Below the pieces are notes generated by a model. It saw only the letters and a list, made by a program, of their open reading frames with translations. It was not told the DNA's origin and made no database searches. Position numbers and translations under genes: made by a program. Positions 29,406 to 63,432 of a DNA stretch of 64,000 nt are shown piece by piece (position 1 is the stretch's first letter; the number at the start of each line of letters is the position of its first letter). This DNA is from the human T2T-CHM13v2.0 reference genome, Homo sapiens: the NCBI RefSeq assembly GCF_009914755.1, contig NC_060933.1; one strand, written 5' to 3'.

Positions 29406-30584
29406 GAGTAATTATTAAATTTTGTTTCAGACTCTGGTGATTTTAGGCTTCTCAGTGGTCTCTGTCTTACTTGATGATTCCTATGTCTTAATTTACCTCC
29501 TTTGGACAGTCTGGGCCCTGAAATAAAAGGGGGCCGCGTAGTGGGGGTTCTGCTATCCCCAGCACTCCTAGGTCTGGAAGTAGTGATTGTCAAAGCCTCC
29601 AGCACTGCACAGACCTGCCGGAGCCAGATCCTGGCTCAATCCCAACCTGCACTTGCGTTTTCACCACAGCCAATGGCAGGAAAGAATTTTCACTGCTTTT
29701 TGTATTGTTTTGGCTTTGAAAGTGCTCTTAATTGAATTCAGTCTTGGCAATATTGTACCTCTTGAGAAGCGGCCTGTGATGAGCACATAAAATTGGAATA
29801 GTGAGTCAGAAATGACATGCTATGAGCAGGGCTGGAAATGTGACCAGAGGTTGGTGTATGAAGGCACCGTCTGCCCTGTCATCTGTGGAGCTCACAGTGA
29901 CCAGTGTGAGCCTTGCTGTTCTTTACACGTTCTGAGCTGTTTAGACATGGGAAGTAGATGTGGTCAGCCAGGCCATCAGTAGTCCCAAGCAGCAAGTCAT
30001 CTCCACCCATTTATCTTTCAGGGCAGTCAGCGGGGCCAGCAGGAAAGGAGAGGTCTTTCCTGCTTCCTCCTCCCCTCATCAGTAAGTAAATAGCAAGTTG
30101 TGGTAAGTTTGAAAATAGGAGATTATTTGAGAATGAAAGTTCCAAAATTAATTTGTGGGCAAAAAGACAAAATAGCCTATCAGCTGCACTCAGCAGCTAG
30201 AATTTTAAAATTTGATAAATCAAAAAATTAAAGATCTCCACTAGAGATGAATTCCTCTGCTCAAAGCCCCTTTTTAGAGCTCTCTAGTTCTGTGATATTT
30301 GTTTTGCTAATCCTAAGATAAAAGCAGCTTAAACAGAGTAGGTAGGCTTTTCAACATGTCATGCAGCTGCTGAGAGCTTTCCTTTTCCTGGGATTTAACC
30401 AAACTCTCATCACATGGTTGCCTGGTGATGCTATCATTTTCTTGGCAGTGAAGGACTCCAGCTGAGGCCACTGCTGCAGGTGACTTCAGCTCCCTCAACG
30501 TGCAGATGGTGCCGCATGAAGCACACAGCTCTGGGCCAGGGGCGCCAAGTACAGTCATTTAACTGAACAATGTACAACTCTATT

Positions 30585-30590
30585 TTTATT
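30585..30590 (-). terminator. SEMA4D: Probable poly(A) signal of the distal SEMA4D isoform
   Basis: TTTATT on + strand, ~1.6 kb downstream of the TAG at 32179. Confidence 0.55.
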
Positions 30591-32178
30591 TTTTCCAGCA
30601 GAGCAAAGAAAGACTCAGAAATTCATCCTCATAACTCCATTTCCCAGTAGAACACTCCACATTACGAAAACTTCAAGTATGTAATTATTTTGTTAAGTGT
30701 GAAAGTGCTTGAAATCCAGACTTCAGGAGAAGAGACAGAAAACAGCACCAAGAATATAAGCCTAAAGCCCATAGCATTTCACTCATCAGTTTGTAGTGGT
30801 TGAAGCCACACCCAAAGCAAGAACCACAGTGAGCTGATGGATATTTTACAGGAAAACTTCAGGTTATGAGTATGTGATGGTTCCGTGAGCAAGACTGGCA
30901 TCCTTGGCTGGATGGGCAAGCACACACCTCACAGGCAGCTGGGCCTCTCGACTTGGGGTGCGGAGGGGGAACGTGTGGAGACAACCAGGGTGTCTCCAGC
31001 ATCTTCAGGACACCTGTTGTGATGGATCCTGAAGGAATTAGCAGGCGATGTATGCTGATCCCACACAAAGGCTGGTAGAGAATTTGTCCAGCTCCAGAAA
31101 GAGGGGATGCAAAACAGGTCATTGTCACACTGCTGGGAAGACACTCAGTATTTGCTAGGATCACCAGAGGGGTGCGGCTTGACTTTTAACAGAGGCTTTG
31201 GTTTTATGATAGACATGAAAACTGTCATTCAACAGACAAGAAGAGACGTGTGTGTAAGATTAAAGGCTGAGTAGCTTTAGGACAAGTTCACACACACAGT
31301 GACACAGTCTTCAGAGATACAGCTTTAATAATTAGAGACTTGAAAGCAGGTAGAACAAAACACTCATGAGACTCATTCCATCGTCAAGAAATTTAATATG
31401 GCACCAGGAGATTTGCATAATTGACCTATTTGGCTTTCTGCATCAAGTTTGGTGTCCTGTTGCAGAAGCTGAGCATTGACGGGACAGAGGCATAAACTGC
31501 AGCGCTTGATAAAATAGAGCCCAGTATTCTGAGGTTAGTGAAGAAAACACAAAGACTTGACAGATGCACTCCCAGATCGCATCTCACAGTCATTCAAGGT
31601 TTAGGGCAAGGCATTTCCATGTGGAGTCTCACCTTTTCTTGTCCCAGTCATGCATCTTGGAGTTCCTTGGCTAAGTCTGCAGGGAGGAGAAGCAGCAGGC
31701 TTGATTTGCATCAATAAAAGCAGCGATCTGTGCTGGCCATGCTAACCCTGTTGGCTATTAGGGGGTGGGGGCACTCTGTCAAGGGGAGTCACTGGGACGG
31801 TGTAGGATCAGCCTTCAGAGCCTGCTGCCTGACCGTAGAGGAGGAACCTGCACACACCCTGCTGTTTTAGTTCACGAGCAGCTATCAAAGCCTGTTAGCC
31901 ATCCTGGTTACCTGCTTGTGCCAGACAGAACTTACTGTCCCAGGTAAGCACCTAATTTTTTAAGTCTTAGTTCCTGTCACAGGCCCACTTGGGTTCCAGG
32001 CTTCTCCACTGTCCCGCCTCTGCCCATCAGGTGGTGGCCCAATGGCTGTGTTCAGAGCAGGCTTGGGCAAGACAGTTCACAGTTGTGGGGGACCAGGCCT
32101 TCTCCGGGGGTGGCTGTGGTCAGTGGCAGCAGGGTCTTGTTGGGGTTGAGGTCGGTGTCAGGGACTCCTTCCTGGTGG

Positions 32179-32205
32179 CTACAGGGTGTCCTTGCTACAG
32201 CTTTC
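32179..32205 (-). CDS. SEMA4D: SEMA4D alternative terminal exon coding part (ESCSKDTL*)
   Basis: tctttcag|GAA; TAG stop; isoform totals 738 aa. Confidence 0.82.
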   Translation of the reverse strand, partial: ESCSKDTL

Positions 32206-33206
32206 CTGAAAGAACAATGTGGTCTTTGAATCCTTGGTGGAACGGATGGGCCTTTCCTGCTCTGCAGCCCAGTCTGTCTCATAGCCCATCCCAGGCAGAG
32301 CACTCAAGGCCTCAGCCCCCTGTTGTGGTTCCCCTCCTTGGAGTCTAAAGATCCAAATGCCAGGAGTGGTTCTCCCATATGTGACAGGAAGGCAGAGCAG
32401 CAGCGCATTCACTCCACTCCCAGATTGTGCTGAGAGGCAGGAGGGCTGGAGAGAGGGAGCCTGTGTGTGCTGAAGTACAGAGGATCAGCTGTAAATGCCC
32501 AGCCTTTGGTGGCAACAGTTCGGGGGTGTACTGCTGGCAGCCACGTAACCCACACACTTTAATGCACTCATTTGAGTGCTGCAGACCCCACCGCAGGTGG
32601 TAGCACACAGTGATGAATCCCTGCCTTTGCCTTCTGTATCGGCTATTTAGGAGCCGGGGCTGGACAACTTTGTCTCCGTGGGGAGACAGGGAGCCTCTAG
32701 GGAGCCTCTGCCCCACTGCCTGCAGCTTCCATGCTGTAGCCCAGTTCCTGCCAGGGCTTAGCTCAGGAAGCCACTCCCCCTGACCCCTCCAACAGGTGCC
32801 TCAGGTGAGGCATCCAGCCAGGAGCTACCTGGAGGGTTCCCCATCTGTCCAGGTTTCCTGCCCTCCTCAAAGGAGTGGCTGGCTGAGTGCTCTGTACAGA
32901 GAATGGGGTGGTCGTGGGGGCCCATCTAACTAGACAGCCCCACCTGTGAGTCCCTCCCAGTCTCGCCTCCCTTCAGTCTCTTTTAAGGGCTGGGGCCAGA
33001 TGCCCCTTGATCTCCTGCAGTCTCAGCAACAAGACGTGGGATTTCCCCCCCCAGTGTTGCAGATTTCATAAAGGAAACTGCTCCGGGGCTAAGAGGGAAC
33101 AAGTGGGGTCCATGCTGAATGGGGCCCTTGAAAGATCCACTGGATGTGGCAGGTGCCCTGCCCCTGGCTCCAGCCCTCCTTTCTTTGCCCGGCTGCGGCC
33201 ACTTAC

Positions 33207-33304
33207 CCACGCCTTCCTCCAGCTCTGCATCATCCGGTCGTGCTCCCCAGCCACAGCCCTCCAGGCAGAGAGCTCTCTGGTCCACCTCTCCTGGTGGGTC
33301 ACTT
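33207..33304 (-). CDS. SEMA4D: SEMA4D alternative cassette exon 3 (EVTHQERWTRELSAW...WRKAW)
   Basis: ttttccag|AA ... TGG|gtaagt; 98 nt, phase 1/0. Confidence 0.85.
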
Positions 33305-33517
33305 CTGGAAAACAAGCAGGGTCCCCAGGTCAAAGCTCTGTGGGCCTTTATGGCACCCTTGATGCCCACTGGCCACCTTTCTCAATGGAAAGCCAATAAA
33401 ACCCAAACCCAGAATGCCACCGTGCAAGCATGCTTTCCAGCTGTTTTTTTCACTGCCATTGTAAATAGTGAAAAATTACCTCATAAAAGGGTAACAGTGG
33501 GCATGGGAATCACTTAC

Positions 33518-33727
33518 CAGGTCTCATCACAGCAACCTGCACCTTCGAAGTCTTGTTCCCTGCTGAGGAGAGGACAGAGCAGCGATACTCAGCGCTTTCC
33601 CTGATGGCGTCCTGCAGCCAGCTGAGTGCATGGGCCCTGCCATCGGGCAGTGCATGGGTCTGCACAGGGACACAGGTCTCCAGAGCTCGCCCATTCTTCT
33701 CCCAGACAAAGCGAATGTCTGCAGGAC
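33518..33727 (-). CDS. SEMA4D: SEMA4D alternative cassette exon 2 (GPADIRFVWEKNG...EYRCSV...VMRP)
   Basis: cccag|GT ... CCTG|gtaagt; 210 nt, phase 1/1; Ig-type W and YxC motifs. Confidence 0.88.
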
Positions 33728-36700
33728 CTGGGGACACAGACCGTTTCCACCTCTGAGTCCACATTTAGGACCCAAAGAAGCTGCCCCATGAGGGTGCAGG
33801 GGGGTTACCTCTGCTGTCCCAGTTGGACCTGAAGTGACTTGGGACAACTTCCAATTCAGTCCCTGGGACTGCCCTGGAGGTGGCTTCCCCATGGCCAGCG
33901 GGAGCCTTGGCCTTGGCCCGTCCTGTGGACTTCCTGCTCTTTGACCTTAATTGCCATTTTTCAAAGCACACCTGTGTGGCCTGTGTCCCCTAGGACCCCC
34001 TTTCTTGCAGCGCTGTGCTGGTTTCTTACAGAATGGTTCTGGGCCTTGGAACAGCATCCCACCCCACCATGGCCCTGCTGCCACACACATGTCCTGTGAC
34101 CACATGGACAGAGACATCCCAAGGCTCTGCCATCACCAGGGCCACAGCATGGAGAGGCCCAGAGCTCGGCCAGCTGTGTGCAGAGGGGGCTGGGCCAGAG
34201 TGGGGACCATGAGGGCCTGTCTCTCCAATTGAGACACTGGGGTGGGCTTGGAGGGGAGTAGATGCCACAGGCTGGAGAGCTCAGACCCTGGCAGGGGCCA
34301 GGCCCTGCAGAATTACACTAGGACTGCCGAGTGCAGCACATCCAGGATGGGCTTCCAGCCTTGAGCATGGACTCTGGGCCCGACATTGGCCACTTCTGCC
34401 GCAAACCTCTGTTGTTTTTCTCTGGGCTTTTGATCTTAATTACTTATTGAAGAAAGTAGAGAGGCCAGTTACTTCACACACACTCAGACCATCTGTTGCA
34501 ACCTGCCAGGGTGGAGCCTGGCTGGCCTCAGCTTGTCTGATGGAGAGATCAGGAGGGTGGGCGAGGCAGAGACGTTCCCCTGTGGCCCAGGCTGCCTCGC
34601 CTGGGGAGGCCAGCCTCATCCCAGGGCAAGAAGTCTGCGCGGCCAACCCTGAGGGCTACTCCTAGACACTATTTGTTCCAGGTGGCTGGGGTGGGGCTGT
34701 GAAAACCAGAATGTTGGGGGTTTTGGGCGGGGGGGAGGGGCACAAGTAAGTTCTGGTCAGCAGGTCACCTCCCGGCCTTCCTTGCTCGTGAAGTCTGTTG
34801 GCCCTCCAGGGGCTGCTGGCCATGTTGGGACAGGCTCAACTCCCTGTTCTTACTGAAGGAAAAACAAGCACATCCATTTTGATCTGCTTCGCACACTGGC
34901 TTCCACTCAAATGCAGAAAGGGCTGAGGGGGGCCACAGTCCCACTAAGCTCCAGCCCCAGAGCGTACAGACCCTGGAGTTGAGCTGGGAGGGCCAGGCCA
35001 GGCCCTGGAGGGCAGGTGAGGGGGTGCAGGTGCTCCTTCTGTCTCTGAAGCTCCTGCTTGTGGTGGGGCTGGGGAGGCCGGCCAGCCTACTCTGCTGCTT
35101 CTGTCTCCCTCAGGCACAGCCTGCATCAGGCCAGGCACCCCAGCAGCGTGGACTGGGGTGACACCCACCTGCTGCCTAGCGACCCGGCTCCCTGACCAGC
35201 ACCTGCCCTTCCTCGAGGCCCACCAAGGCCCCCAAATGGGCCATGGGCCACCTAGACCAGTGCCGGCCATGGCCTCTGCTTGACCATGACACCTCGTAAG
35301 AATTGGTCTTTAGAAGTTAGATTTGCCCTAGATGTCCATCAACCTCACAATGACAAAATGAAGTGTGGCTTCATGGAGAATGCTTAGTAGTGAAAAGGAA
35401 GGAGTTCAGAACACTGAGCAGGTAAAACAAATTCCAGAGCCAAAAGAGTCCAAAGTACCTGCACACACAAAAACTGGCCTTGTTCTCAGGTGTAGGGGCA
35501 GAGGTGCATCCAGTTACAGGTATTAAATGGTGTGGGTGGACCCACGCTCCCCTCCCTGGGCAGGACAGTAGTGGCCAGAGAGCTTTCCATTTCTGTGGCA
35601 CATGCTGGACTTTTGAAAAGAAGAGATCGCCAGTTTAATGAAGCTGACTTTAGTAATGCATTTTCCCTGCTTTACTGACTGTGGCATCTGCTCATCTTTG
35701 TCCGGTCTCTTGGTCAACAATTCCCCACTGTCCAGGATCACCAGAGAATGCTCCTCCCAAGGACTTGACCAAGCTCAGACCCTTTAGCTGGGCAGTCCTA
35801 GGAATGAGTCCCGAGGCAAGGATGGGCCCAGTGAAGCCCTGTTTCTATCAGTGAGGAGTTGGGAAATGTCCAAGAAGGGGGCCACAAGTCACTCATTCGA
35901 AGTGCCATCGAAGAATATTCAGCAACACAGAAAAATAAGTGAAACAATATCTAGGAATGTGTGCATATATGTACACACCCATGTATACATGTGTGAACGT
36001 AGATAGTCATGGCCCAAAAATGGCTGGGATGCTGGTGGTAACTACCTCTGGATGGTTAAATTTGGGATTGTTTAAATTTTTTCTTTATACTTCCCTGGAG
36101 TTTCCAAACTTATAACAAACAAGCATTGCTTTTATAATAATAATTTTTTATAAAAGTGTTACTTTGAAGGAAACATTCTGTAAACTCAAGGAAATTCAGA
36201 AGGTGCTCCAAAACTGTTTTGCCTGGCGGCCCATCTGGCCCTGGCCTGGTGGACAAGCCCTTGTGAACAGGTTTGGTTTTTGTGCAGAATTTAAAAAAAA
36301 ACAAAACTTAACACTCTATAATTTGTTTTTTCCCACTCAAAATGTTTTGGACTCTGGCCACAGATAATTCCATGTATCTATCTACAAATATAAGTACATA
36401 TTACATAGATGTACAAACATATGTCTCTATGTACATCTAGGTGCCCATCAACTGGGGAATAGATATTCCCTTTCCCAGCTGATGGGCATCCAGGTAAAAT
36501 CTCATTTTAAGAAACAGATTTTTTTGAGCTGTTATGATCAAGTAACACTTTTCTTTGAACAGACAGTGAAGTGAGTTCTATAAAAGCCCGGTCTCCTCCC
36601 TCATGTGACCTGCACCAAGAACCACCCAGGGGACTGGAGTCACTGAGTCACAGGAGCCTCTGGAAGGTTCTCATGACCAAGCCCTTGAGACTAAGAATCT

Positions 36701-39642
36701 GGGTGGCCTAAGCTGGATTGGATTAATCACCCAACGCCCCATCATGGGACCACTGACTGCAAAACCCTCAAAGCTCTACACTCTTGGGGTGTGAGCAGAA
36801 ACAGACACGTGCTTACCACTGCTAACAGGCATCAGTAAATACTATTTAAATACATGCTTGATCATCATAAGACATTAAAGATGTTAAAGAAGTACTTACG
36901 TTCCATGTATTCGTTTTTAAACTATCCATCTCTTTCTGAATGCATGAGAGAGAGGGAAAGTGAGAGTTACCATCAGTGTGCAGGGCCACCCCATCAGCAC
37001 CGCACCCTCAGCGGGACAGGGCAGCAGGTGCAAACCCACGTATGTCCCACGGAGGACTGCTGGGGAGCTCCTGGAATCCTAGGCCCCCAGTGGGGAGCTG
37101 TCTTCCATCTCCCAGCAGGGCCTCCTGAAAACACCACTGTTTTCTTGCTTGGGCCAGTGCTCCAAGCTCCCTAACCATCCAACCCTGTTACCTCAAGAGA
37201 GCGGCCAGGCTGGGGTGCTACTCCCAGATCACCCCCTTGGCCTCTGTGGGGTGGGGACAAGAGGCTGGTCTGATGCTGTGGGGCTCAGCAGCCACCAACC
37301 TGGATGTGCCTTGGCTCTTCCCAGTGGCGAGCCAGGTGACACTGGTCGCGCCCTCAAAGAAGGGAAGTTGTTGTGGCTTACAAGGATCTAGGGTAGAGGT
37401 CCTGAGGACAGATATTTCCCCCTGGCCCTTCCTGTCACTGCAACTAGCTTAAGTTGAAGGCAAATTAACTGCTGTGGCAGATGCCGTAGGTAATGATCTT
37501 TCTCCTACAGCTAGGACTGTCGTGAGAAGACTGATCACCTTGGTATAAGCAAGGGCCAGGTTTATTCACCAGGGCTGGGTTTATTACATCAACTCAGGAG
37601 TCTGGGGAGGCTGTTGGCAGCCTGGGCTCCAGCACTCAGCCTGTCACTGGGGCACCTCCCACCTGCTCACTCCCACCCCAAGCCTCTAACGGAGCCAGCT
37701 GGTGCCAGGACCACCATGGCTTCAGAGCTTCGTGGATGTGATTACAAAATATGGAGCTGATTCTACTCTGCGACAAACCAGGTGCCCTCTGGGCAGTGGC
37801 CTCGCCCTGAGGAAGGCCTGGAGGGGTGGTGAGACATCCACCCAGTGACTGAGTTGCTCGGGCCCATCCTGGAAAGTGCCCCCACTGCCATCTCCTGCAG
37901 CACTCCTCTGTGTCCTCCCGGCATCCCCATGCATGTGGCCCACTCTGACCTCAGGGCTGGCTGCCTCGGGGCCAGCCCATCTCCCAAACTCACATCCAGG
38001 TGGCCTTCCTGCAACTAATGGGGCAGCGGGCACATCCCCAGAGGGGCCATTCTCTGCACACAGTGCTGGCCGCTGGCCATCATGTCTTCCATGATGGGAC
38101 TCCTGGCTTGTCCCTGCCTGTACCCGCTGCCCGGGCCTCACCCGGACACCTGCTCCCAGCCTCTTTTCCCGAGGATCCCACTGCTTCCCTGGCCCATCTC
38201 TGTGCTCTCTCCTTGGGGCACGGTCTTTTCTAATCCTGGCCATGGCCCCTCCTCCCTCCCAGACTCTGGGGACCCTTCTGGGGACAAGGACAGTGCAGCT
38301 GGGGGTATGCCCTGAGGCCTTGTTGGTCATCCTTTCTGTCCTCTGTTGAAGTCACAGAGTAGCCAGGGGCCCCAAGAGGAGGGAGGAGAGAGTGAGACCC
38401 CTGCCACATAGGTAGCAATTCTGACAGCTCCCTTCTCTGAGTCCTCATCTCCCTGACAGTCACCAGGCCGACGCAGCCTAACGTTTCACTCTGGTATGCT
38501 CTAGACCACTCAGGGCACTGGACCAGCCCCAGCGCTTCTGGAATGCACCTGTTCATGCCTGCCACTTACTGGCCAAGCCGCCTTATCAATGTGGGCAGGA
38601 ATCCTGAACCTCTTCTCTGCAAAGGGACCTGAGAAAGTACCACTGAGGCATCTGTAGGCATCGCCTGGCTCCATGGGGGGCCTGTGGGAAGGCACCACTG
38701 AGGCACCGAGGGCATTTCCAGACCCCAGGTAACCAGACAGCTGTGTTGTAAAGGCACGTGGAATTATCCCAGATAACAGAAGAGACATGGATAGTTTCTG
38801 GTGAAGCTGCCTCATCTAACATGCGAAGGACCTCAGAGCACAGGGAGTTGATAGCACCACCTTGTCCTGTCCAGCAAGGGTGGCCCAACACACAAGGTCA
38901 ACTAATTCCCACGACGGCCGTGGCCTTTCAAGAGTCTGAAACAAAGGGAAATGTCACAGAGCAGCTGGAACACACACATGCGTGCCAACAGGCCACTGTG
39001 GCTGCTAGGAACGGGGGCCCTCTCCAGAGCCCTGGGCCCCTCAAAGAGGACCAAGGGCGCCTTCTGCTGCTGCCCTCTGATCCCAGTGGTTCCAAGGGCT
39101 CTGATTTCTAACACTGTAGTTAAAACATAAAAGGCCATCCCAAATCCAAATATCTAAATGCTGCCTAAAGTATGGGGGAACCATTATTAGCTTTGAAAAT
39201 GACACGGGTCTAAACTTGACATGGAAGATAGTCCTGGCAGAGGTGAAGGCAGGGCCCTGACAGGGTAAAGACTGCACTTTGGTTAAAAAATTATATCGAT
39301 CTGTTTCTGTGTGTGCACACTAATGTACAAGTGCATGATTTGTATCTGCATGTAGACACAACCCATCGCCATTCATCGCTATTGATCCTTACGTTTGTAT
39401 GCCAGATGCGCTATGTGCTGGCACACGGGTGGTGGGGTTATTTTTTCACCCATCTGTATTCTGAGTGATCCATGAGGAACTTGGGTTCATCAGTTCAGAC
39501 GAGCAGAGCTCGGCTGCATGCTAACTTTACTTCACCAGCTCCAGACGGCTTTCCTCCCCTTGTCAATACACATGCTGCTCCACTTGCCACGGGGCTGCAT
39601 CCCAATAAACCCACTGTGAGTTGAAACGATCCTAAGTCAACA

Positions 39643-42205
39643 ATGTGTGTGTGTGTGTGTATGGTTGTGTATGTGTGGATGTGATTGGTGTGGTGTGGGT
39701 AGCGTGCATGTGTCTATGTGGTGTGTATGTGCTTTGGTGTGTGCAGTATGTGTGGTGGTGTGTGTGTAACAGTGGTATGATTGGTGTGTGTGTGATGTGT
39801 GTTGTATGCTGTGCTGTGTGTGGTGCATGTGTGAGTGGTTGTGTTTGGTATGGTGTGTATGGGGGTGGTTTTAGGTGTGTGTACAGTGTGTGTGTGTGGT
39901 GTGTGTTGGTATGTGTGCACATGTGCAGTGAGTATGCATGGTCTGTGTGTATGGTGTTTGATGTGTGTGTGGTGTGTGTGATTTGGTGTATGTGATGTTT
40001 TGTGCTGTGCATTTATTGTGTGCATGCACATGGTGTGTGTGTTGTGTGGTGGACATGATTGTGTTTGTGATGTGTGTGCGTGTTATGTCGTGTGTGTGTG
40101 TTGTGGTACATGTGTCGTGTGGTGTATATTGTGGTGTATCTGTACGTATGTGGTGTATCTGATATATGCGTGGCGTGTGGTGTGTGTGGTGTGTTTGTGG
40201 TGTGTGGCTGGTGTGTGGTGTGTGGTATGTAGGTGTGTGTCTGGTTTGTGTGTGTGGTGTGTATGAAGGAGGTATGGTGTGTGTGTGATGCTGGCATGTG
40301 GTGTGTGTGGCATGTGGTGTGAGGGGGTGTGGTGCTGGTGTGTGGTATGTCTGCTGTGTGGTCTGTGTAGTGTGTGTGGTATGTGTGTCTGGGATGTGTG
40401 TGGGGGGGTACAGTGCATGGCATGTGTGCGGTATACGTCATGCTCATGTGTGGTGTGTGTGTCTGGTGTGTGGTATGTGGCTAGCATAGTCTATGTAGTT
40501 TGTGGGGTGTGGTGTGTGTGTGGGGTGTGGTTGTGAGGGGTGTGATGTGTGTGTGGGGTGGGGTGTATGTGTGGGGTGTGGCATGTGTGTGGGTGTGGTG
40601 TGTGTCTGGGGTGCGGTGTGTCGGGCGTGTGTGTGTGGGATGTGGCGTGTGGGGTGTGTGTCTGGGATGTGTGGCATGTGACTGGGATGGTGTGTGTTGG
40701 GGGGGTGTTGTGTGTCTGGGGTATGGTGTGTATCTGGGGTAGGGTGTGTATCTGGGGTGAGCTGTGTCAGGGGTATGTCGGGGTGTGGGGTGTGTGGTAT
40801 CTGGGGTGGGGTGTGGTGTGTGTCAGGGGTATGTGTATGTCTGGGGTGTGGGGTGTGTGTTATGTCTGGGGTGTATAAGGTGTGTGTGGGGGGGTGTGGT
40901 GTGTATGTCTGGGGTGTGGGGTGTGTGTTATGTCTGGGGTGTATAAGGTGTGTGTGGGGGGGGTGTGGTGTGTATCTGGGGTGTGGTGTGTGGGGTGTGG
41001 TGTGTGTCTGGGGTAGGGTGCGTATGTGGGGTGGGCTGTGGCATGTGTGTGGGGTGTGGTGTGTGACGGTGTGTGTGTCTGGGGTGTGGTGTGTGTGGGG
41101 TTGGTGTGTGTCTGGAGTGTGGTGTGTGTTGGGGTGTGTGTGTCTGGGGTGTGGCATGTGTGTCTGGGGTGTGGTGTGTGTCTGGGGTGTGGTGTGTGTC
41201 TGGGGTGTGTGTGTGGGGTGTGGTGTGTGTCTGGGGTGTGTGTGTGGGGTGTGATGTGTGTGGGATGTGTCTGGGGTGTAGTGTGTGTGTGTCTGGGGTG
41301 TGGTGTGTGTGTGGGGGTGTGTTTGGGGTGTGGTGTGTGGGGGGGGGTGTGTGTCTGGGGTGTGGTGTGTGTCTGGGGTGTGGTGTGTGTCGGGTGTGTG
41401 TGTGGGGTGTGATGTGTGTGGGATGTGTCTGGGGTGTGGTGTGTGTCTGGGGTGTGTGTGTGGGGTGTGATGTGTGTGGGATGTGTCTGGGGTGTGGTGT
41501 GTGTCTGGGGTGTGGTGTGTGTCGGGTGTGGTGTGTGTGTGGGGGGTGTGGTGTGTGTCGGGGTGTGTTTGGGGTGTGTGTGTGGGGGGTGTGTGTGTCT
41601 GGGGTGTGGTGTGTGTTGGGGGTGTGGTGTCTGAGGTGTGTGTGGGGGGGTGTGATGTGTGTGGTGTCTGGGGTGTGGTATGTGTGTGGTGTGTGGGGTG
41701 TGGTGTGTGTGGGGTGTGGTGTGTGTGGGGTGTGGTGTGTGTGGGGTGTGGTGTGTGTCTGGGGTGTGGTGTGTGTCTGGGGTGTGGTGTGTGTCTGGGG
41801 TGTGGTGTGTGTTGGGGTGTGTGTGTCGGGTGTGGTGTGTTGGGGGCGTGGTGTGTGTCGGGTGTGTGTGTGGGGGGTGTGATGGGTGTGGTGTGTGGGG
41901 TGTGTGTGTTGGGGGGCGTGGTGTGTGTCGGGTGTGTGTGTGGGGGGTGTGATGGGTGTGGTGTGTGTGGGGGGTGTGGTGTGTGTCTGGGGGGTGTGGT
42001 GTGTGTCTGGGGTGTGGTGTGTCTGGGCTGTGGTGGGTGTGTGGGGTGTGGTGTGTGTCGGGGGTGTGTATGGGGTGTGGTGTGGGTCGGGGGTGTGGTG
42101 TCTGAGGTGTGTGTGGGGGGGTGTGGTGTGGTGTGTGTCTGGGATGTGGTGTCTGGGGTGTGGTGTGTCGGGGGTGTGTGTGTGTCTGGGGTGTGGTGTG
42201 TGTGT
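39643..42205. repeat. ~2.56-kb GT-rich simple repeat/minisatellite (core GTCTGGGGTGTGGTGTGT)
   Basis: Almost entirely G/T on the + strand; 18-mer core repeated many times. Confidence 0.97.
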
Positions 42206-44505
42206 CCCTGCCCGTCCTTCACGGCTGGTACCAGGGTGACTGACTATAGTAAATGTGCATTGCTAGCCGCATGACAAAGCTTAGACAGCAGTCCATCCCA
42301 GGGCCAACGCGGTGCAGGATGGCTGTGCAACAGCTCTGAACACTCTCAAGGCCGCTGTCCCTCCTGTGCGGCCACAGTGCACACTGAGGCAGTCGGCCAC
42401 TCCCAGCTGCTCCAGGCCCTGCCGATGCACTCAGTCCCCCAGGACTCAGGATCATAGGGCTAGCGGCTCCCAGGGCACGGGCCCCAAGGCAGTGCAGTCC
42501 TGACCTGCCCACCCCTCTTGTCACTGAGCCCAGGGTACCATGCTTGGGGTGACACCATGTGCTGTCTCACCTGGGCACTGCAAAGGCATAGTTCCCACTA
42601 TGACACCCCTAGGGTGTCCCAGGGCCTTCTCAGGACCGTCCCATCCTGCCCCAGGGACAAGGCTGGCCTGTGCCAGGGCCATCAGTGGATCTTTCCGTAT
42701 CATCTTCCACTGATAATTCCACTTCCTAGAGGCGAGAACTGTGGTGGAGAAGGGATGAAATGTGTCTAGGTGGAGAGTGGCACTGGTGGCCAATCTCCCA
42801 CCCCAGCTCCTGACACAGGCCCACAGGTGTGGCCCTGTCCCTCCCTTGGATGGGCACTGAGGCCCCTGGGTGCAGGACAAGGGTGGGCCTCCACCCCACC
42901 ACCAGGCCTCAAGCTCTCGCATCCCCAGGACACAGGCCTCTCCGCCCTACTCCGCCCACGTGGCCACATCACCTCCACCGCACCCCACGTTGGGCCCTTG
43001 TGCCCTGGCAGCCTCTGCACACACCACAGGCTATGTTTTCCCCTGTGCAGACCCACCCCGATCCCCTTTCAGGAAGCGCTTTGGCCTCAGAGGGCCCTCA
43101 CCTCTCCTGGATGGCCAAGTCCCTGGGGCCACTTTCTGAGCACTGGCCAAGTGTTGGGGCAGGTGGGGACATCTCCTGGGTGACACATGGGCCTCCACCA
43201 GCTCTGGGGCAGACCCAGTCCCCAAGTGCAACCCTGACCAGCTGACCTTCCATCAGTCAGCCCTCTCTGGGGGGTGAGACGCTCCCCAAGACACAGGGTC
43301 ACCCAGCAGAGCTACAGGCACCAGGACGCAGCATGGGGAACTGAAGATGCCACGAATGTCCTCTTAAGTTTCATATTCTAAAGACACTTTGCTAGCCCTT
43401 TAATCAGACAGCCCCCAAACCACTGTGACAGCTACCACGAAAACAGCCATTATAGCAAAGAAAAACCCAGCCAAGTTCCAAAGCAGCCCTGCCCTGGGTG
43501 GCTGGGGGAGGACACAGGCAGAAGCGGTAGGCCTGTGCCTTGAGTGCACTGTATTGCAATCTCCAGGCTCTGGGCCTCACCTGGAATGGCTCATTCCTGG
43601 CCCACAAGGCAGAAAATGGCACTCACTCTCCTCAGGAAAGTCTCTGGGACTTGCAAGTCACACTGTGGCCTCTGTCGCAGGAAGCATCTACAGACCCCAA
43701 CAGAACCCTGGAGCCTACTCGGGAAATTCACAGCCACAGCCCCTCTGAGTTCACGGCATGCCCATGATGCCCTGGCCTCGGCCCACCCTTGAAAAGGCTG
43801 AAGCCACTCTCTCCTAAGCTGGTGCTCCCTGGGGAGGTCTCACAGCCTTCGCAGGCTGTGGCCTCAGTGGAACAAGTGAACGAGAATGTCCCAGATGGGG
43901 CCAAATGCCTCTGGAGAGAAAGTAAAGACCACGTGAAAAGGGGGTGGCGGAGGGCTGGGGGCCTCAGTTCTCAATCTGTTCAGTCCATCCTGAGCACTGG
44001 CAAAGGACTGCCCTCCTCCCTCAGCTCCCCTACCCTCTACACACTACTCCTGGCCACACTGCTGCAAGCCCACAGCTACATTCCCCATATCCATCTGTGA
44101 CCGCCAGCTTTCTGTTAGGTCTGGCCATGGGAGTCATTGACAGGAGACAGGAAGTTGGAAGGAAGAAACATTTTTGTGGCTTCAAGTAGGACCTCCAGCA
44201 GTGAAGGCAGTGTGGCGGGCAGGGAGAGGCTGCAGATCACACGGCCACAGCCTCGGTGGCACAGCAAGTGAGACTGAGTGTTTGACACTTCACTCTTCCT
44301 GCCCATGGCTGATAATGGAAACCTCACCTTCCCACTGTTCCCAGCCCTTCTATCACCTTTGTAACCAATTCCCTGTGTTAAATGCCCTGTGGTTGAAATA
44401 TCTGGGGTGGTTTCTGTTGCTGTAACAGTGATGTCCCTTCTCCCTGGGCACCCATCTTTCATTCCCTGCTGACCCCAGGGGCTTGTGTGTATGCCTGCCT
44501 AGCTA

Positions 44506-45284
<779 letters not shown>

Positions 45285-45654
45285 TTAACAGGAGAGGGCA
45301 GCACCTTAAAACTCTCAGGAGCTACTGACAGTGTGTTTAACATGTTTAAAAAGAGAGCAATTGGGTTTGCTTTTCCTCTTCATTAACTTCATCCCTCCCC
45401 CGGGGCAGGCTCTAACAGGCCACTTCCTTTCTTTCTGTATCTACTGATCAGTCAGATGACAACACAGGGGCCACCAGGGCTACCACGCACTGCCTGAAGC
45501 ACAGGATACATCTTTGAAGTGTGGTTCTGGACATCTACTATCTTTCAAGAGCAGATATCCCATCCGAGTATTTTCCAATCCAGGGCAAATGCCTCCAGGT
45601 CCCAGAGGAGTACACTAGACTCTCAATCTTTTCTGTTTTTATAATGATGATGAT

Positions 45655-45895
45655 TTTTGAGACAGGGTCTTGTTCTGTGATCTAGGCTGGAGTGCAGTGG
45701 CACCATCATACCTTACTGTAACCTCAAACTCCTGGGCTCAAACAATCCTCAAGGCACGTGCCACCAAGCCTGGTTAGTTTTTTTCACATTTTTGGGTAGA
45801 GATCAGGTCTCGCTATGTTGCTCAAGCTGCTGTGAAACTCCTGGCTTCAAGCAATCCTCCTGCCTTGGCCTCCCAAAGCAGGGGGATTATGCCCG
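45655..45895 (-). mobile_element. AluJ-like, degraded, antisense
   Basis: gagacagggtcttg...ctcccaaagc. Confidence 0.8.
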
Positions 45896-46029
45896 CCAAT
45901 CTTTTCCGCTTTTAAATACCACGAAGCAAGTCATTAAAACAACTCCCATTCTGGAAGCTCTTAATTTTTTAAAATTTCCAAATACCACGTATATCAACCT
46001 CCAAATTGTTAGCAGAAATAGAAGCACTC

Positions 46030-46146
46030 TGGCTCTGGAGGCTGAGGCAGGAGGATGGCTTAAGCCCAGGAGGCAGGGGCTGCAGTGAGCTATGATTGTG
46101 TCACTGCACTCCAGCCTTGGTGACAGAGGGAGACCCTGTCTCTTGA
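46030..46146 (+). mobile_element. Alu right-arm fragment
   Basis: gaggctgaggcaggaggatggctt...gcactccagcc. Confidence 0.8.
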
Positions 46147-46187
46147 AATTTTTTTTTTTTTTAAGGGAGAAGCAATCCTATATACCA

Positions 46188-46398
46188 CAGGTTGGGAAAC
46201 TGGGGCCTTTGGGGCAAATCTGGCCCACCGTGCATTTTTATAAATAAAGTTTTACTGGCACACAGCCCTGACCACTCGTTGTGTATTGACTATGGCTGGT
46301 TTTACAATACAACAGCAGAGCTTAGTGGCTGTGACACAGCCTGCAGCCCACAAGGCCTAAATATCTAGCCCTTTACAGAAAACACTGGTTGACCCCTG
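46188..46398. mobile_element. MER58A-like DNA transposon
   Basis: caaatctggccc, ataaagttttactggcacacagcc, ccctttacagaaaa, gacccctg. Confidence 0.75.
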
Positions 46399-46609
46399 TA
46401 CACTAGAAGTGGCTTCACACTGTCTACAGTTTCCCTCGGGATGGACCCACAATGAAAGCGTGAAACGGCTCAACCCGAGGGACGCAGCCAGGACAGATAA
46501 GGAAGGTAAAGGAACATGTGGAGGGATGTGGAGGATGCCCCCGCCCGCCCCCCACCTGTGGGAGGAGACAGATGGACAGGGCACAGGGGACAGAGAGGGC
46601 CCAACTCAC

Positions 46610-46828
46610 CTGTGGCCTGGCAGAAGAGGTAGAAGTTCCCCAGGGCGTGCACGTGCTGTGCCTGGTCACTCAGGAAGGGCGGCAGCAAGGAGACCCTCGA
46701 GCTGCTGTCGGGCCCCGCACCCGAGGCTGGCCAGGGGGTCCAGGGAGAGGAAAGCCTCCTGTCCCCCACATGGCCCAGACAGGACAGGGAAGAGGAGCCA
46801 GGAGGAGGGAGGGGCTTAGGAGACGAGG
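46610..46828 (-). CDS. SEMA4D: SEMA4D alternative 3' cassette exon 1 (ASSPKPLPPP...VSLLPP...FYLFCQAT)
   Basis: Pyrimidine tract + cag|CC ... ACAG|gtgagt; 219 nt, phase 1/1, compatible with the 50832 donor; matches recalled SEMA4D isoform 2. Confidence 0.85.
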
Positions 46829-47031
46829 CTGTGAGACAGAGAGGACAGAAAAGAGAGGGCACTGAGGAAGAAGTCGCCAGGAGCACGTCACAGGCCAGAG
46901 AGGGCAAAACACAGCAGGAAACGGACAGAAAAGAGCGAGCCCAGCTGTCCCGCCTGGGCCATGCAGGGGTGGGAGGCTGCACAGCCTCCGCTAAGGAATG
47001 TCTTCCCCAAATCAAGGATAGAAGCTTCTCA

Positions 47032-47037
47032 TTTATT
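47032..47037 (-). terminator. SEMA4D: Poly(A) signal AATAAA of the SEMA4D membrane isoform (second candidate at 47183-47188)
   Basis: TTTATT on + strand, ~1.45 kb downstream of the stop, after a U-rich UTR. Confidence 0.7.
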
Positions 47038-48480
47038 TGGGTACTTTCCAAATGTATACAATTCAAAGTAGAAAAATAAAAACAAGGTAAATCTTATAAA
47101 ACACAAATGTTTACACCAAAATGGTCAAATCCTATCATGCTGGAAGATAAGACTGTCCACACACGCGCACAAACATCCAGAGTTTATTGCTCTTCACCAT
47201 GGAAAAAAAGTCTCTTCCCGATGGGTATTTACAAAGCGGGGAGATGGAGTGTGAAATTAACCAGTGTTGAAATCGTACCACCCATTCACATCTTCAGGAC
47301 AGTGGCAGGAACAGCGCCGTATGCTTGAGGGTGCTGTGGTCACAGCTCGCGGCCCCGGCCACCGAGGCCCAGTTCCCTTCCAGTAGTGGGCAGCTCAGTG
47401 AGGCTGGATAGAAAGTCTGGGCAGGCAGTGGGTAAGCAATTGAAGCAAGAAGAGAAAGGAGATGTTCAGAGAACCAAAGGCGCCCTTGTGAAGGTTCCAT
47501 CTGTCTCACAGGAGGTTCTGACCGACAGCTGTGGGCTCCAGATTGTACCGCACTCCCATCTCAGCTCTGGGCCAGCCTGGCTCCACTCAGCTCATCCAGG
47601 CTACCTTCCCTTGCTCAAAACCCACCTCGTGGATGTGGGAAGGTCCTCTTCTTCGAGAGAGTAAAAGTTAAAAAAAAAGAAAAGTAAAACGAAGTACAGA
47701 AAGAAAATCTCTCCAAAAACAATGCTTCCCTCAAGGAATAAAGTTAAAAAAAAAAAAAGAAAAAGAAAAAAGGTGAGTGGGCTCCGGGGAGTGTTTATGT
47801 CTACATTTCTAAAAGCAGAAAGAATGCATTTAGCAAAAGGAAGTTTATCCCTGAGAATCTTAAGCAACGTAAGCCGTATTTTATGCCAAATATATAACAA
47901 AATCTGGAAGATATACATCTTCTTCTAAATATTAACACAACTGCTTCTGTAACTAAAAAAAAATGACCCATGACATAAACACAATCAAAGCAAAATCCTA
48001 AAAAAATAATTAAGTGGAAGAAAAGGTTCGTGCCAATCTGGACAACAGGCGATAAGTTACCAATCTGATAAACTAAAATGTCATTTCCAATCTGGAATTA
48101 AATAATCTTTTAGTGGCTGCTACGGGGAGGGGAAGCTGAAGGGATGCTCTTCTCAGCCAACAGAGGTCCAGCCACCTTTCCCCCACTACAGAAAGGGCTC
48201 AGGAACTCCGTGCCGCCCGTGGGCCTTCTTCAAGTACTCCGACTGACTTCGGAACACAAGACTGGGATGCAATGCTTGTCATTTTTCCAAAAGGACAAAG
48301 AGAAACCAAGTCACAGGCTCAACCCAAGAGAAAATAGACAAGAGGACTGAGGTTGTCTGCACGATGCGGGCTAACCTACGCAGCACTGCACGAGACTCGG
48401 ATACTGAACAGGAGAAACACAAAACTCTCCACGCCTGGACACGTCGCAGCCGAGGCACCAGCGGGGATGCACAGCCGGCC

Positions 48481-63432
<14,952 letters not shown>

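What the first reader, a model, noticed from the sequence alone, without database searches (positions are those of the whole stretch)
33518..46828. Alternative SEMA4D cassette encodes an antibody-constant-like (C1-set) Ig domain split by a 12.9-kb intron
Seen: joining exons 46828-46610 and 33727-33518 gives RVSLLPP...FYLFCQATG|PADIRFVWEKNG...LPDGRAHALSWL...AEYRCSVLSSAG. Established: C1-set hallmarks, for example in IgG CH3, read VYTLPP...[21 protein letters not shown]...DSDGSFFLYSKL...FSCSV. The VxxLPP, LxCxxxG, PxDIxxxWxxNG, DGxxxxxSxL and (Y/F)xCSV elements all line up by eye. C1 domains are largely confined to Ig, TCR, MHC, B2M, tapasin and SIRP, and are normally encoded by one exon. Inference: this is not a diverged copy of SEMA4D's own Ig exon but a separate immune-type module, possibly an independent gene captured as an alternative 3' end. 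The isoform itself is annotated as I recall; I do not recall this domain reading being described.
Basis: partly seen in the sequence, partly recalled or inferred. Interest (0 to 1): 0.8.

Follow-up and report, generated by a model that had tools for sequence, protein, structure and literature searches.

The report
SEMA4D secreted-isoform Ig tail, I-set-like
The alternative 3' exons of SEMA4D really do encode an extra immunoglobulin domain split by a 12.9-kb intron, but it looks more like a cell-adhesion-type (I-set) domain than an antibody-constant (C1) domain, and it is an ancient, already annotated part of SEMA4D that replaces the membrane anchor.

Summary
Exons 46828-46610 and 33727-33518 (minus strand) join in frame across a phase-1 intron of 12,882 bases. 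Exons 33304-33207 and 32205-32179 complete the tail.

The C1-set reading is not supported by sequence.
- Pfam favours I-set: 34 of 37 and 28 of 30 orthologues match at E<=1. C1-set matches 12 of 37 and 10 of 30, and stayed below its cut-off in the five proteins scored singly.
- PDB sequence neighbours are titin, LAR-type phosphatase Ig1, LRIG1 and neuregulin.
- The Cys-Trp spacing fits the I-set match and is two residues short of IgG CH3.

Fold comparison is a near tie. Foldseek puts beta-2-microglobulin and MHC first. VIA-align puts MuSK, Lrig3, Dscam and titin first, at lower rmsd.

The module belongs to SEMA4D in mammals, birds, reptiles, amphibians and teleosts. It is not a recent capture.

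It is followed by a conserved four-heptad, Trp-rich helix ending in a Cys, and no membrane anchor follows. It therefore most likely makes secreted SEMA4D.

The isoform is already annotated and has been seen as protein (PMC8909304). Interest is low to moderate.

The parts
46698..46828 (-). First part of alternative exon A. It encodes a Pro/Ser-rich linker (ASSPKPLPPPGSSSLSC...). The acceptor takes either the donor of exon 50832-50875 or an internal donor at 49077.
   Evidence: Translation and splice sites are. The linker is moderately conserved in 37 orthologues, and its Cys is present in amniotes only. AF2 gives pLDDT below 50 here, indicating disorder.
46610..46697 (-). Second part of exon A. 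It encodes Ig strand A (..SLL), the PP turn, a short predicted A-B helix, and strand B with the first Cys (..FYLFCQAT, plus the first base of the Gly codon).
   Evidence: L122, L123, P124, P125, D129, Q130, V134, F140, L142, F143 and C144 are invariant or nearly so.
33728..46609 (-). A 12,882-nt phase-1 intron that splits the Ig domain between strands B and C.
   Evidence: Gene-model fragments in the unnamed representative library start their homology at the same Gly-Pro position. This is consistent with a conserved exon boundary, which is an inference.
33518..33727 (-). Exon B. It encodes Ig strands C, C', D, E, F and G (PADIRFVWEKNG ... AEYRCSVLSSAGNKTSKVQVAV), with the invariant Trp, the second Cys and a partly conserved N-x-T sequon.
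   Evidence: W156, S183, W184, Y195, C197 and S208 are invariant in 37 sequences. pLDDT exceeds 90.
33207..33304 (-). Exon C. It encodes most of the C-terminal amphipathic helix (..WTRELSAWRAVAGEHDRMMQSWRKAW).
   Evidence: The helix spans residues 219-252 in the human-type model (block-mean pLDDT 69-97) and 107-141 in the eel model (block means 67-82). A heptad stripe runs W225, W232, H239, W246, C253, with L229, V236, M243 and W250 between.
32179..32205 (-). Coding start of terminal exon D: ESCSKDTL followed by the TAG stop. It carries the conserved terminal Cys.
   Evidence: Cys253 is present in 34 of 37 sequences.
30564..32178 (-). 3' UTR of the alternative transcripts, with AATAAA at 30590-30585.
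   Evidence: plus the hub gene table for exon 30564-32205.
49075..49077 (-). Internal 5' splice site (GAAG|GTAGTA) inside the canonical terminal exon. It lies after the canonical Ig domain and before the transmembrane segment, in the same phase as exon A's acceptor.
   Evidence: The junction '..TE|A/T-SSP..' is used in the 838-927-aa two-Ig SEMA4D proteins of 16 of the 18 species examined, from teleosts to marmot (the motif search found no match in the other 2). No human exon ending here appears in the hub's RefSeq list.

Best explanation
The interval is the alternative 3'-terminal exon set of SEMA4D.

How the isoforms arise: the canonical terminal exon (Ig, stalk, transmembrane and cytoplasmic parts; 49406-47012) can be skipped. 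In other species it can also be left through an internal donor, which human DNA keeps at 49077. Either way the Sema-PSI core is joined to four downstream exons.

What the downstream exons encode:
- a disordered Pro/Ser linker;
- one Ig domain, split B|C by a phase-1 intron;
- a four-heptad, Trp-rich amphipathic helix that ends in a conserved Cys.

No transmembrane segment follows, so the product is a secreted semaphorin. This is shown by reading the sequence; secretion itself is inferred.

Domain class: the Ig domain is best classed as I-set-like, the 'intermediate' type of titin, LAR-type phosphatases, MuSK and Dscam. Its predicted structure also lies within about one Z unit of C1-set domains. 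It is not a copy of SEMA4D's own Ig domain.

Age: the module has been part of SEMA4D at least since the common ancestor of teleosts and tetrapods.

Inferred mechanism (not tested): the heptad helix and its terminal Cys hold the two chains of the semaphorin dimer together. They would replace the stalk cysteine and membrane anchor that this isoform lacks, and the extra Ig domain would act as spacer or partner-binding surface.
For: Anatomy and frame.

I-set class:
- Pfam I-set scores 23.8 bits for the human-identical P0001 (cut-off 23.7), 25.3-27.2 for three other orthologues and 19.2 for mouse P0101. C1-set scores 18 bits or less, or is not listed.
- At E<=1, I-set matches 34 of 37 one-Ig orthologues and C1-set 12 of 37. 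Among non-mammal module-only proteins the counts are 28 of 30 and 10 of 30.
- phmmer of the module P0027 against PDB: the first 26 rows are titin, RPTP delta/sigma/LAR, LRIG1 and neuregulin-1 (E 1e-15 to 8e-5). MHC and beta-2-microglobulin rows all have E>0.07.
- The RPTP-delta Ig1 alignment runs from strand B to strand G with Cys on Cys and Trp on Trp. In the CH3 alignment the Cys is offset by two columns.
- Of 12 non-orthologous hits Pfam-scanned out of the 88 listed from the 1.84-billion-protein library, 10 have I-set as top family and 1 has Ig_3.
- VIA-align puts MuSK Ig3 first (Z 12.0, rmsd 1.7-2.1 A, 88-91 residues aligned). Lrig3, Dscam, titin and UNC-5 follow.

Ancient SEMA4D part:
- The named rows are semaphorin-4D isoforms in placental mammals.
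- They are also semaphorin-4D isoforms in birds, crocodilians, turtles, squamates, frogs, a caecilian and many teleosts.
- Mouse-to-fish identity is 36-45% in the Ig domain and 26-34% in the tail, against 62% in Sema+PSI.

Tail:
- The long helix appears in two models.
- Mean conservation on the W-W-H-W-C heptad stripe is 0.95.
- The teleost sequences examined lack the extra Cys166, so the terminal Cys is unpaired within the module.

Expression: passages of PMC8909304 report the 'last-exon' SEMA4D mRNA on polysomes and a smaller protein isoform in Jurkat T cells.
Against: - Foldseek (3Di+AA) lists only beta-2-microglobulin, MHC class I/CD1 and MHC class II entries in its 50 rows for the human-type model. 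It lists mostly such entries plus IgG, IgM and IgNAR constant domains for the eel model.
- The nearest ESM-Atlas clusters carry C1-set, C2-set_2 and C2-set_3 (scores 0.90-0.93, a weak range).
- A six-sequence profile of the module puts an IgG Fc hybrid first against PDB sequences. That score is a sum over four domains. The best single domain is 13.3 bits, against 17.1 for an LRIG1 domain.
- Both AF2 models show a short helix where an I-set domain would have its A' strand, and no A' strand. Confidence is lower there (block pLDDT 74).
- The VIA-align margin between I-set and MHC class II domains is only 0.5-1.4 Z units.
- The human Pfam I-set score passes the cut-off by only 0.1 bit.
- Nothing tested here shows secretion, dimerisation or any partner.
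Confidence: 0.7

Rival explanations
1. One reading: the domain is a true C1-set (antibody-constant / MHC / beta-2-microglobulin type) domain. On this view an immune-type module sits at the end of an immune semaphorin.
For: - All 50 Foldseek rows for the human-type model are C1-type entries, and most rows for the eel model are too.
- The nearest ESM-Atlas cluster is 89% C1-set, at score 0.93.
- Both AF2 models show an A-B helix and no A' strand.
- Sub-threshold Pfam C1-set matches occur in 12 of 37 and 10 of 30 orthologues, with a best E of 4.3e-4.
- Half-domain phmmer hits MIC-A/B alpha-3 at E 0.04.
- IgG Fc rows rank high in the profile search.
Against: - C1-set stays below its Pfam cut-off in the five proteins scored singly (18 bits or less against 21), and its best E-values over the two orthologue sets are 0.0017 and 4.3e-4. 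I-set is always the better family.
- The Cys-Trp spacing is 12 residues, as in RPTP-delta Ig1, not 14 as in the CH3 chain shown.
- The F strand reads E-S-A-E-Y-R-C...G-N. This matches the I/V-type pattern rather than the C1 pattern; both patterns are recalled, not tested.
- VIA-align gives C1 domains a higher rmsd (2.5-3.8 A, against 1.7-2.3 A) and an equal or lower Z.
- Beta-2-microglobulin is absent from all three VIA top-50 lists.
Confidence: 0.2
2. The cassette is, or recently was, an independent gene that is only read together with SEMA4D by transcript models. The old symbol C9orf164 appears as the name of one duck fragment.
For: - Stand-alone gene models exist: LOC697570 in macaque (P0004), LOC135232381 in elephant (P0060), LOC118241550 in electric eel (P0271), and 'C9orf164, partial' in duck (P0336).
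- The hub table lists RefSeq enhancer marks at 33674-34675, over exon B.
- P0004's first exon maps inside the long intron, at 35590-35402.
Against: - The stand-alone models begin with unrelated or intron-derived residues. P0001 starts at 47051, inside the canonical 3' UTR, and reads straight through to exon A.
- Exon A's acceptor phase fits two different upstream SEMA4D donors. The junction residues are conserved from fish to mammals.
- More than 200 listed proteins named semaphorin-4D carry the module at their C-terminus.
- The module on its own has no start codon in exon A.
Confidence: 0.05
3. The alternative transcripts are splicing or read-through noise or decay targets, and the open frame has no protein function.
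For: [quoted passage not shown]
- The canonical poly(A) end at 47012 lies only 184 nt upstream of exon A (and the hub table).
Against: - Invariant Trp, Cys, Tyr and His positions are kept across 37, 42 and 30 aligned orthologues from fish to human.
- The stop codon lies in the last exon, so the transcript is not a predicted NMD target.
- Polysome association and a protein band are reported in PMC8909304 (passages).
Confidence: 0.05

Closest known systems
SEMA4D / CD100 isoform 2 (738 aa in human; mouse rows are named isoform 3 and 4 precursors; 'isoform X2'-type models in many vertebrates)
   Same: It is this object. The gorilla 738-aa protein P0003 maps exon by exon onto the window, including 46829-46608, 33728-33519 and 33308-33201. 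Mouse rows are named 'isoform 3/4 precursor'.
   Different: Nothing differs structurally. What is added here is the domain class, the conservation from teleosts to mammals, the heptad tail, and the conserved internal donor for a two-Ig form.
I-set Ig domains of LAR-type receptor phosphatases (Ig1), titin, LRIG1/Lrig3, MuSK Ig3 and Dscam
   Same: These are the best sequence matches in PDB. They are also the best VIA-align matches, at Z 11.4-12.0 and rmsd 1.7-2.3 A. They share the Cys-Trp and Cys-Cys spacing of RPTP-delta Ig1 and the Pfam I-set match.
   Different: No A' strand is predicted; a short helix sits in the A-B connection. The Pfam score is only at the cut-off. The domain is followed by a unique helical tail.
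C1-set domains (beta-2-microglobulin, MHC class II alpha-2/beta-2, Ig constant domains)
   Same: These are the top Foldseek matches, at E about 1e-5 and target-normalised TM 0.6-0.7 for the single-domain chains. VIA Z is 10.6-11.5. An A-B helix and the lack of an A' strand in the models resemble C1; the C1 feature itself is recalled.
   Different: The Pfam C1-set match is below cut-off in the proteins scored singly. There are two fewer residues between the B-strand Cys and the C-strand Trp. The rmsd is higher. The domain is encoded by two exons.
Class 3 (secreted) semaphorins: Sema-PSI-Ig followed by a C-terminal tail with an interchain disulfide (architecture recalled, not tested here)
   Same: The overall layout is the same: a secreted Sema-PSI-Ig-tail protein with a C-terminal Cys.
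   Different: No sequence relation was seen. No other semaphorin class appeared by its own name among the hits. A few fish SEMA4D clusters carry a UniRef label 'Semaphorin-3C' beside an NCBI name of semaphorin-4D. The tail here is an amphipathic Trp-rich heptad helix, not a basic tail.
Membrane-versus-secreted switch of the immunoglobulin mu heavy chain (splice site inside a composite terminal exon competing with a poly(A) site; recalled analogy)
   Same: An internal donor inside the canonical terminal exon (49077) and a poly(A) site (47012) decide between an anchored and a secreted product (and the hub table).
   Different: Here the secreted form is the spliced, downstream one, and it gains a whole extra domain. 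Regulation was not tested.

Membership tests
Ig C1-set (Pfam PF07654) | Match to the curated C1-set profile at or above its gathering score (21 bits) | tested here: not met
   Not listed for P0001, P0007 and P0101, and 15.3 and 18.0 bits for P0027 and P0060. Matches at E<=1 occur in 12 of 37 (best 0.0017) and 10 of 30 (best 4.3e-4) orthologues.
Ig C1-set (Pfam PF07654) | B-strand Cys to C-strand Trp spacing as in constant domains | tested here: not met
   In the HMMER alignment to IgG CH3 the query Cys sits two columns after the CH3 Cys while the Trp residues align. The spacing is 12 here and 14 in that chain.
Ig C1-set (Pfam PF07654) | Seven-strand A-B-E-D / C-F-G topology without A' or C' (definition recalled) | tested here: inconclusive
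   DSSP of two AF2 models shows strands A, B, C, a 2-residue C', D, E, F and G, with a helix instead of A'.
Ig C1-set (Pfam PF07654) | Closest solved structures are C1 domains | tested here: inconclusive
   Foldseek says yes. VIA-align puts I-set domains first and MHC class II domains 0.5-1.4 Z lower at higher rmsd.
Ig I-set (Pfam PF07679) | Match to the curated I-set profile at or above its gathering score (23.7 bits) | tested here: met
   P0001 23.8, P0027 25.3, P0007 25.3 and P0060 27.2 bits; mouse full-length P0101 reaches only 19.2. At E<=1, 34 of 37 and 28 of 30 orthologues match. The margin for the human sequence is 0.1 bit.
Ig I-set (Pfam PF07679) | Closest sequence relatives with solved structures are I-set domains | tested here: met
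   Titin, RPTP delta/sigma/LAR, LRIG1 and neuregulin-1 fill the first 26 rows (E 1e-15 to 8e-5).
Ig I-set (Pfam PF07679) | A' strand paired with strand G (definition recalled) | tested here: inconclusive
   No A' strand appears in the DSSP of either model; a helix is predicted at 127-133 and at 16-22. The region has lower confidence and no coordinates were available.
Semaphorin class 4, SEMA4D orthologue group | The module is physically joined to the Sema and PSI domains of SEMA4D in one protein | tested here: met
   Pfam Sema and PSI appear in 26 of 37 aligned members that also carry the module. The source names are semaphorin-4D.

The most novel reading that the evidence does not exclude
Vertebrate SEMA4D has always made natively secreted forms by a splice-versus-poly(A) choice at its terminal exon. 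There would be two forms: a one-Ig form and a two-Ig form. The two-Ig form uses the conserved internal donor at 49077, which is not in the hub's human RefSeq exon list. On this reading, these forms are covalently dimerised by a Trp-rich heptad helix with a terminal Cys. Part of the 'soluble SEMA4D' measured in blood and targeted in the clinic would then come from splicing rather than shedding. It would carry an extra Ig domain, on the border between I-set and C1-set, with a binding partner of its own.
Probability: 0.25. Interest if true: 0.55.

Novelty: already known. Interest (0 to 1): 0.3.

Why it matters
Soluble SEMA4D is a biomarker and drug target. A passage read here (PMC10935759) ascribes it to proteolytic cleavage of the membrane form. 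My searches found no paper on the domain make-up of the spliced secreted isoform.

A secreted isoform conserved from fish to man, with its own Ig domain and a likely dimerising tail, would be a distinct ligand species. Antibodies and assays may or may not see it.

For the scan itself, the value is mainly corrective. The attractive 'antibody-constant domain in a semaphorin' reading rests on a by-eye alignment that fails at the Cys-Trp spacing. The case also shows that Foldseek top lists can be filled by the very numerous beta-2-microglobulin and MHC chains.

Tried and rejected
1. Half-domain searches were too weak to decide. Exon B alone gave Pfam I-set 18.6 bits against C1-set 13.1. Its top PDB hits were neuregulin-1 at E 0.0055 and MIC-A/B at E 0.04. 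Exon A alone matched no Pfam family. I then used whole-module proteins returned by the database searches.

2. The homodimer prediction (two copies of residues 117-258 of alignment A3) was never accepted. There was no usable answer. No result exists in either direction.

3. The ESM-Atlas search with the tail alone (residues 215-258) gave no usable hit.

6. Codon-level dN/dS was not possible because no vertebrate DNA collection is on hand. Protein-level conservation was used instead.

7. No cartilaginous-fish, lamprey, coelacanth or lungfish name appeared in the rows shown. The lists are capped at 120 rows and many rows are unnamed, so this says nothing firm about the age of the module beyond bony vertebrates.

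8. Literature:
- Searches found no paper describing the domain content of the isoform.
- PMC8909304 (passages) treats it as an alternative-polyadenylation isoform. Its Figure S8 was not seen.
- For PMC13187750 I saw the abstract, passages of the text and one table row; its supplements were not seen.
- C9orf164 occurs in 3 papers (listing only).


Full report
**1. Observation**

On the minus strand, exon 46828-46610 (219 nt) and exon 33727-33518 (210 nt) have consensus splice sites. They join in the frame handed down from exon 50832-50875. The Gly codon between '...FYLFCQAT' and 'PADIRFVWEKNG...' is split one base plus two, so the 12,882-nt intron (33728-46609) is phase 1.

The frame runs on through exon 33304-33207 and eight codons of the terminal exon, reaching TAG at 32181-32179. 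An AATAAA lies at 30590-30585.

**2. Is it an Ig domain, and of which set?**

Because a joined sequence may not be typed, I first searched with the translation of exon B alone. That was too weak to decide. It did retrieve whole proteins that carry the module, and these were used from then on.

*Sequence profiles.*
- On five such proteins, Pfam I-set scores 23.8, 25.3, 25.3 and 27.2 bits for P0001, P0027, P0007 and P0060, and 19.2 for mouse P0101. The cut-off is 23.7.
- Ig_2 comes next. C1-set is not listed for three of the five and scores 15.3 and 18.0 bits for the other two, against a cut-off of 21.
- Across 37 aligned orthologues that carry only this Ig domain, I-set matches 34, Ig_3 30, Ig_2 30, ig 13 and C1-set 12 at E<=1.
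- Across 30 module-only proteins from non-mammals, the counts are I-set 28, Ig_3 18, C1-set 10 and Ig_2 9.

*Sequence neighbours.*
- phmmer of the 137-aa module P0027 against all PDB sequences gives titin, RPTP delta/sigma/LAR Ig1, LRIG1 and neuregulin-1 in the first 26 rows (E 1e-15 to 8e-5). MHC and beta-2-microglobulin rows all have E>0.07.
- The alignment to RPTP-delta Ig1 runs from strand B to strand G, with Cys on Cys and Trp on Trp.
- In the alignment of a six-sequence profile to IgG CH3, the query Cys is two columns out of register while the Trp residues align.
- In the library of 1.84 billion representatives, the non-orthologous hits to exon B are long multi-Ig proteins. I Pfam-scanned 12 of them: I-set is the top family in 10, Ig_3 in one, and one has no Ig match.

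**3. Evidence that points the other way**

Two AlphaFold2 models were made, one headed by the human-identical P0001 and one by a cutthroat-eel protein, P0179. Both give a confident Ig sandwich, with pLDDT above 90 over most of it.

Both show the same elements:
- strand A;
- a short helix in the A-B connection;
- strands B, C, a two-residue C', D, E, F and G;
- a long C-terminal helix.

No A' strand is assigned. Confidence is lower in that stretch (block mean 74).

*Foldseek against PDB.*
- For the human-type model it lists only beta-2-microglobulin, MHC class I/CD1 and MHC class II entries in its 50 rows (E about 1e-5; rmsd 3.7-6.0 A).
- For the eel model it lists mostly the same, plus IgG, IgM and IgNAR constant domains. 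SYG-2 D4 is at rank 7, Lrig3 I-set at rank 13 and MuSK Ig3 at rank 22.

*ESM-Atlas.* The feature search puts a C1-set/C2-set_2 cluster first (0.93) and a butyrophilin C2-set_3 cluster second (0.92). The tool itself calls this score range weak.

*VIA-align.*
- It scores one representative per sequence cluster, so it is not swamped by the many beta-2-microglobulin chains.
- Its order is MuSK Ig3 (Z 12.0, rmsd 2.1 A over 90 residues; 1.7 A over 88 for the eel model), then Rst D2, sDscam, DSCAM, Lrig3, titin and UNC-5.
- The first MHC class II domain comes at rank 16 (Z 11.0, rmsd 2.6 A) for the human-type model. For the eel model a shark Ig constant region is at rank 23 and an MHC class II domain at rank 26 (both Z 10.6, rmsd 3.5 and 3.8 A).
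- Re-scoring Foldseek's own best 1000 chains gives the same order. The seven non-MHC rows (MuSK Ig3, Lrig3, Rst D2, sDscam, DSCAM and two titin entries) come first (Z 11.5-12.0, rmsd 1.7-2.3 A). MHC class II follows (Z 10.7-11.5).

The fold therefore sits on the border between I-set and C1-set. The sequence evidence tips it to I-set. I put about 65% on I-set-like, about 20-25% on C1-like, and the rest on 'not classifiable'.

**4. Whose domain is it?**

It is not a copy of SEMA4D's own Ig domain. BLASTP against the canonical last-exon protein gives E=19.

It is also not a recent import.
- The 120 rows shown of 185 hits to exon B are semaphorin-4D isoforms or fragments. Every named row is from a placental mammal.
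- A profile of four non-mammal modules finds 138 longer proteins, and the 120 shown are again semaphorin-4D. They come from birds, crocodilians, turtles, squamates, frogs, a caecilian and many teleosts.

These proteins come in two sizes:
- about 704-762 aa, with Sema-PSI joined straight to the module, as in human isoform 2;
- about 838-956 aa, with the canonical Ig domain and stalk followed by the module.

In the larger form the junction reads '..TE|A/T-SSP..' in 16 of 18 species examined; the motif search found no match in the other two. Human DNA keeps the matching internal donor, GAAG|GTAGTA at 49077|49076, in the right phase. The hub's RefSeq list shows no exon ending there.

Stand-alone models are fragments.
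- They include macaque LOC697570, elephant LOC135232381, electric-eel LOC118241550 and a duck protein named 'C9orf164, partial'.
- They begin in unrelated or intron-derived residues.
- P0001 starts at 47051, inside the canonical 3' UTR, and reads straight through into exon A.

Against mouse, fish sequences keep 36-45% identity in the Ig domain and 26-34% in the tail, compared with 62% in Sema+PSI. Trp156, Ser183, Trp184, Tyr195, Cys197, Ser208 and His239 are invariant in 37 sequences.

**5. The tail and the likely mechanism**

After the Ig domain both models predict one long helix, at residues 219-252 and 107-141.

- Conservation is concentrated on a seven-residue stripe: Trp225, Trp232, His239, Trp246, Cys253 (mean 0.95).
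- Leu229, Val236, Met243 and Trp250 lie four residues after each of these. Together they form a regular a/d heptad pattern over four heptads.
- Cys253 is present in 34 of 37 sequences.
- The extra Cys166 in the C'-D region is present in 33 of 37 and missing from the teleosts examined.
- A linker Cys is present in the amniote full-length rows but not in the frog or teleost rows.
- In fish, therefore, the terminal Cys has no partner within the module.

No hydrophobic segment follows, so the product should be secreted. I infer that the helix and its Cys tie the two chains of the semaphorin dimer together. They would take the place of the stalk cysteine and membrane anchor of the canonical form; the dimer and the stalk cysteine are recalled knowledge. 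The Ig domain would serve as spacer or binding surface.

The homodimer prediction that would test this could not be run, because the queue was full at every try (last).

**6. What is known**

The isoform is annotated in the hub table, and mouse proteins are named 'isoform 3/4 precursor'.

- Passages of PMC8909304 describe the canonical mRNA as an intronic-polyadenylation isoform and this one as the 'last-exon' isoform. [quoted passage not shown] Its Figure S8 was not seen.
- PMC13187750 lists SEMA4D in a table of candidate NMD-escape switches (table row seen). Its supplements were not seen.
- A passage of PMC10935759 describes soluble SEMA4D as a product of proteolytic cleavage.
- Six full-text searches found no paper on the domain content of the isoform. 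C9orf164 occurs in three papers, of which I saw only the search listing.

**7. Verdict**

The striking part of the interpretation, a C1-set antibody-constant-like module possibly captured from another gene, is not supported by sequence and is only tied by structure. The object is an already annotated, ancient alternative C-terminus of SEMA4D.

What is worth keeping:
- the conservation from teleosts to mammals;
- the heptad Trp-rich tail with a terminal Cys;
- the conserved internal donor for a two-Ig secreted form that is not in the human RefSeq list given.

Noticed in passing
window 49075-49077 (minus strand), inside canonical terminal exon 47012-49406: A strong internal 5' splice site, GAAG|GTAGTA, lies after the canonical Ig domain, in the same phase as the acceptor at 46828. 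In 16 of 18 species examined, from teleosts to marmot, the 838-927-aa two-Ig SEMA4D proteins show the matching junction. The hub's RefSeq exon list shows no human exon ending here.
   Followed up: partly
window 42571-42738 (minus strand): This 168-nt exon of 'other transcripts' lies inside the 12.9-kb intron. It is open in exactly the frame needed for a phase-1 to phase-1 insertion. It would place 56 residues between strands B and C of the Ig domain. The unnamed protein P0132 has a different insertion at the same point.
   Followed up: no
window 46829-47051: The acceptor of alternative exon A lies only 184 nt downstream of the annotated end of the canonical transcript (47012). The database protein P0001 (13 member sequences) starts at 47051 and reads straight through this gap into exon A. 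Read-through of the canonical poly(A) site therefore does occur in assembled transcripts.
   Followed up: partly
window 35402-35590 (minus strand): The first 71 residues of a macaque stand-alone model (LOC697570 isoform X4, P0004) align at 48% identity to this stretch inside the long intron. This hints at an alternative first exon or internal start upstream of exon B. The hub table lists RefSeq enhancer marks nearby, at 33674-34675.
   Followed up: no
window 30564-36894: The alternative SEMA4D 3' exons (minus strand) overlap tail-to-tail with the extended SECISBP2 transcripts (plus strand, to 36894 in the hub table). The selected SECISBP2 transcript ends at 29440, about 1.1 kb from the SEMA4D alternative poly(A) end.
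   Followed up: no
proteins P0157 and P0174, unnamed library representatives: Two long repeat proteins with no obvious relation to semaphorins scored E 7e-8 and 5e-6 against the 69-aa exon B translation. The match falls on a repeated '...YRISWAK.GE...W.D...' unit. It is probably a chance or beta-sandwich-level resemblance.
   Followed up: no
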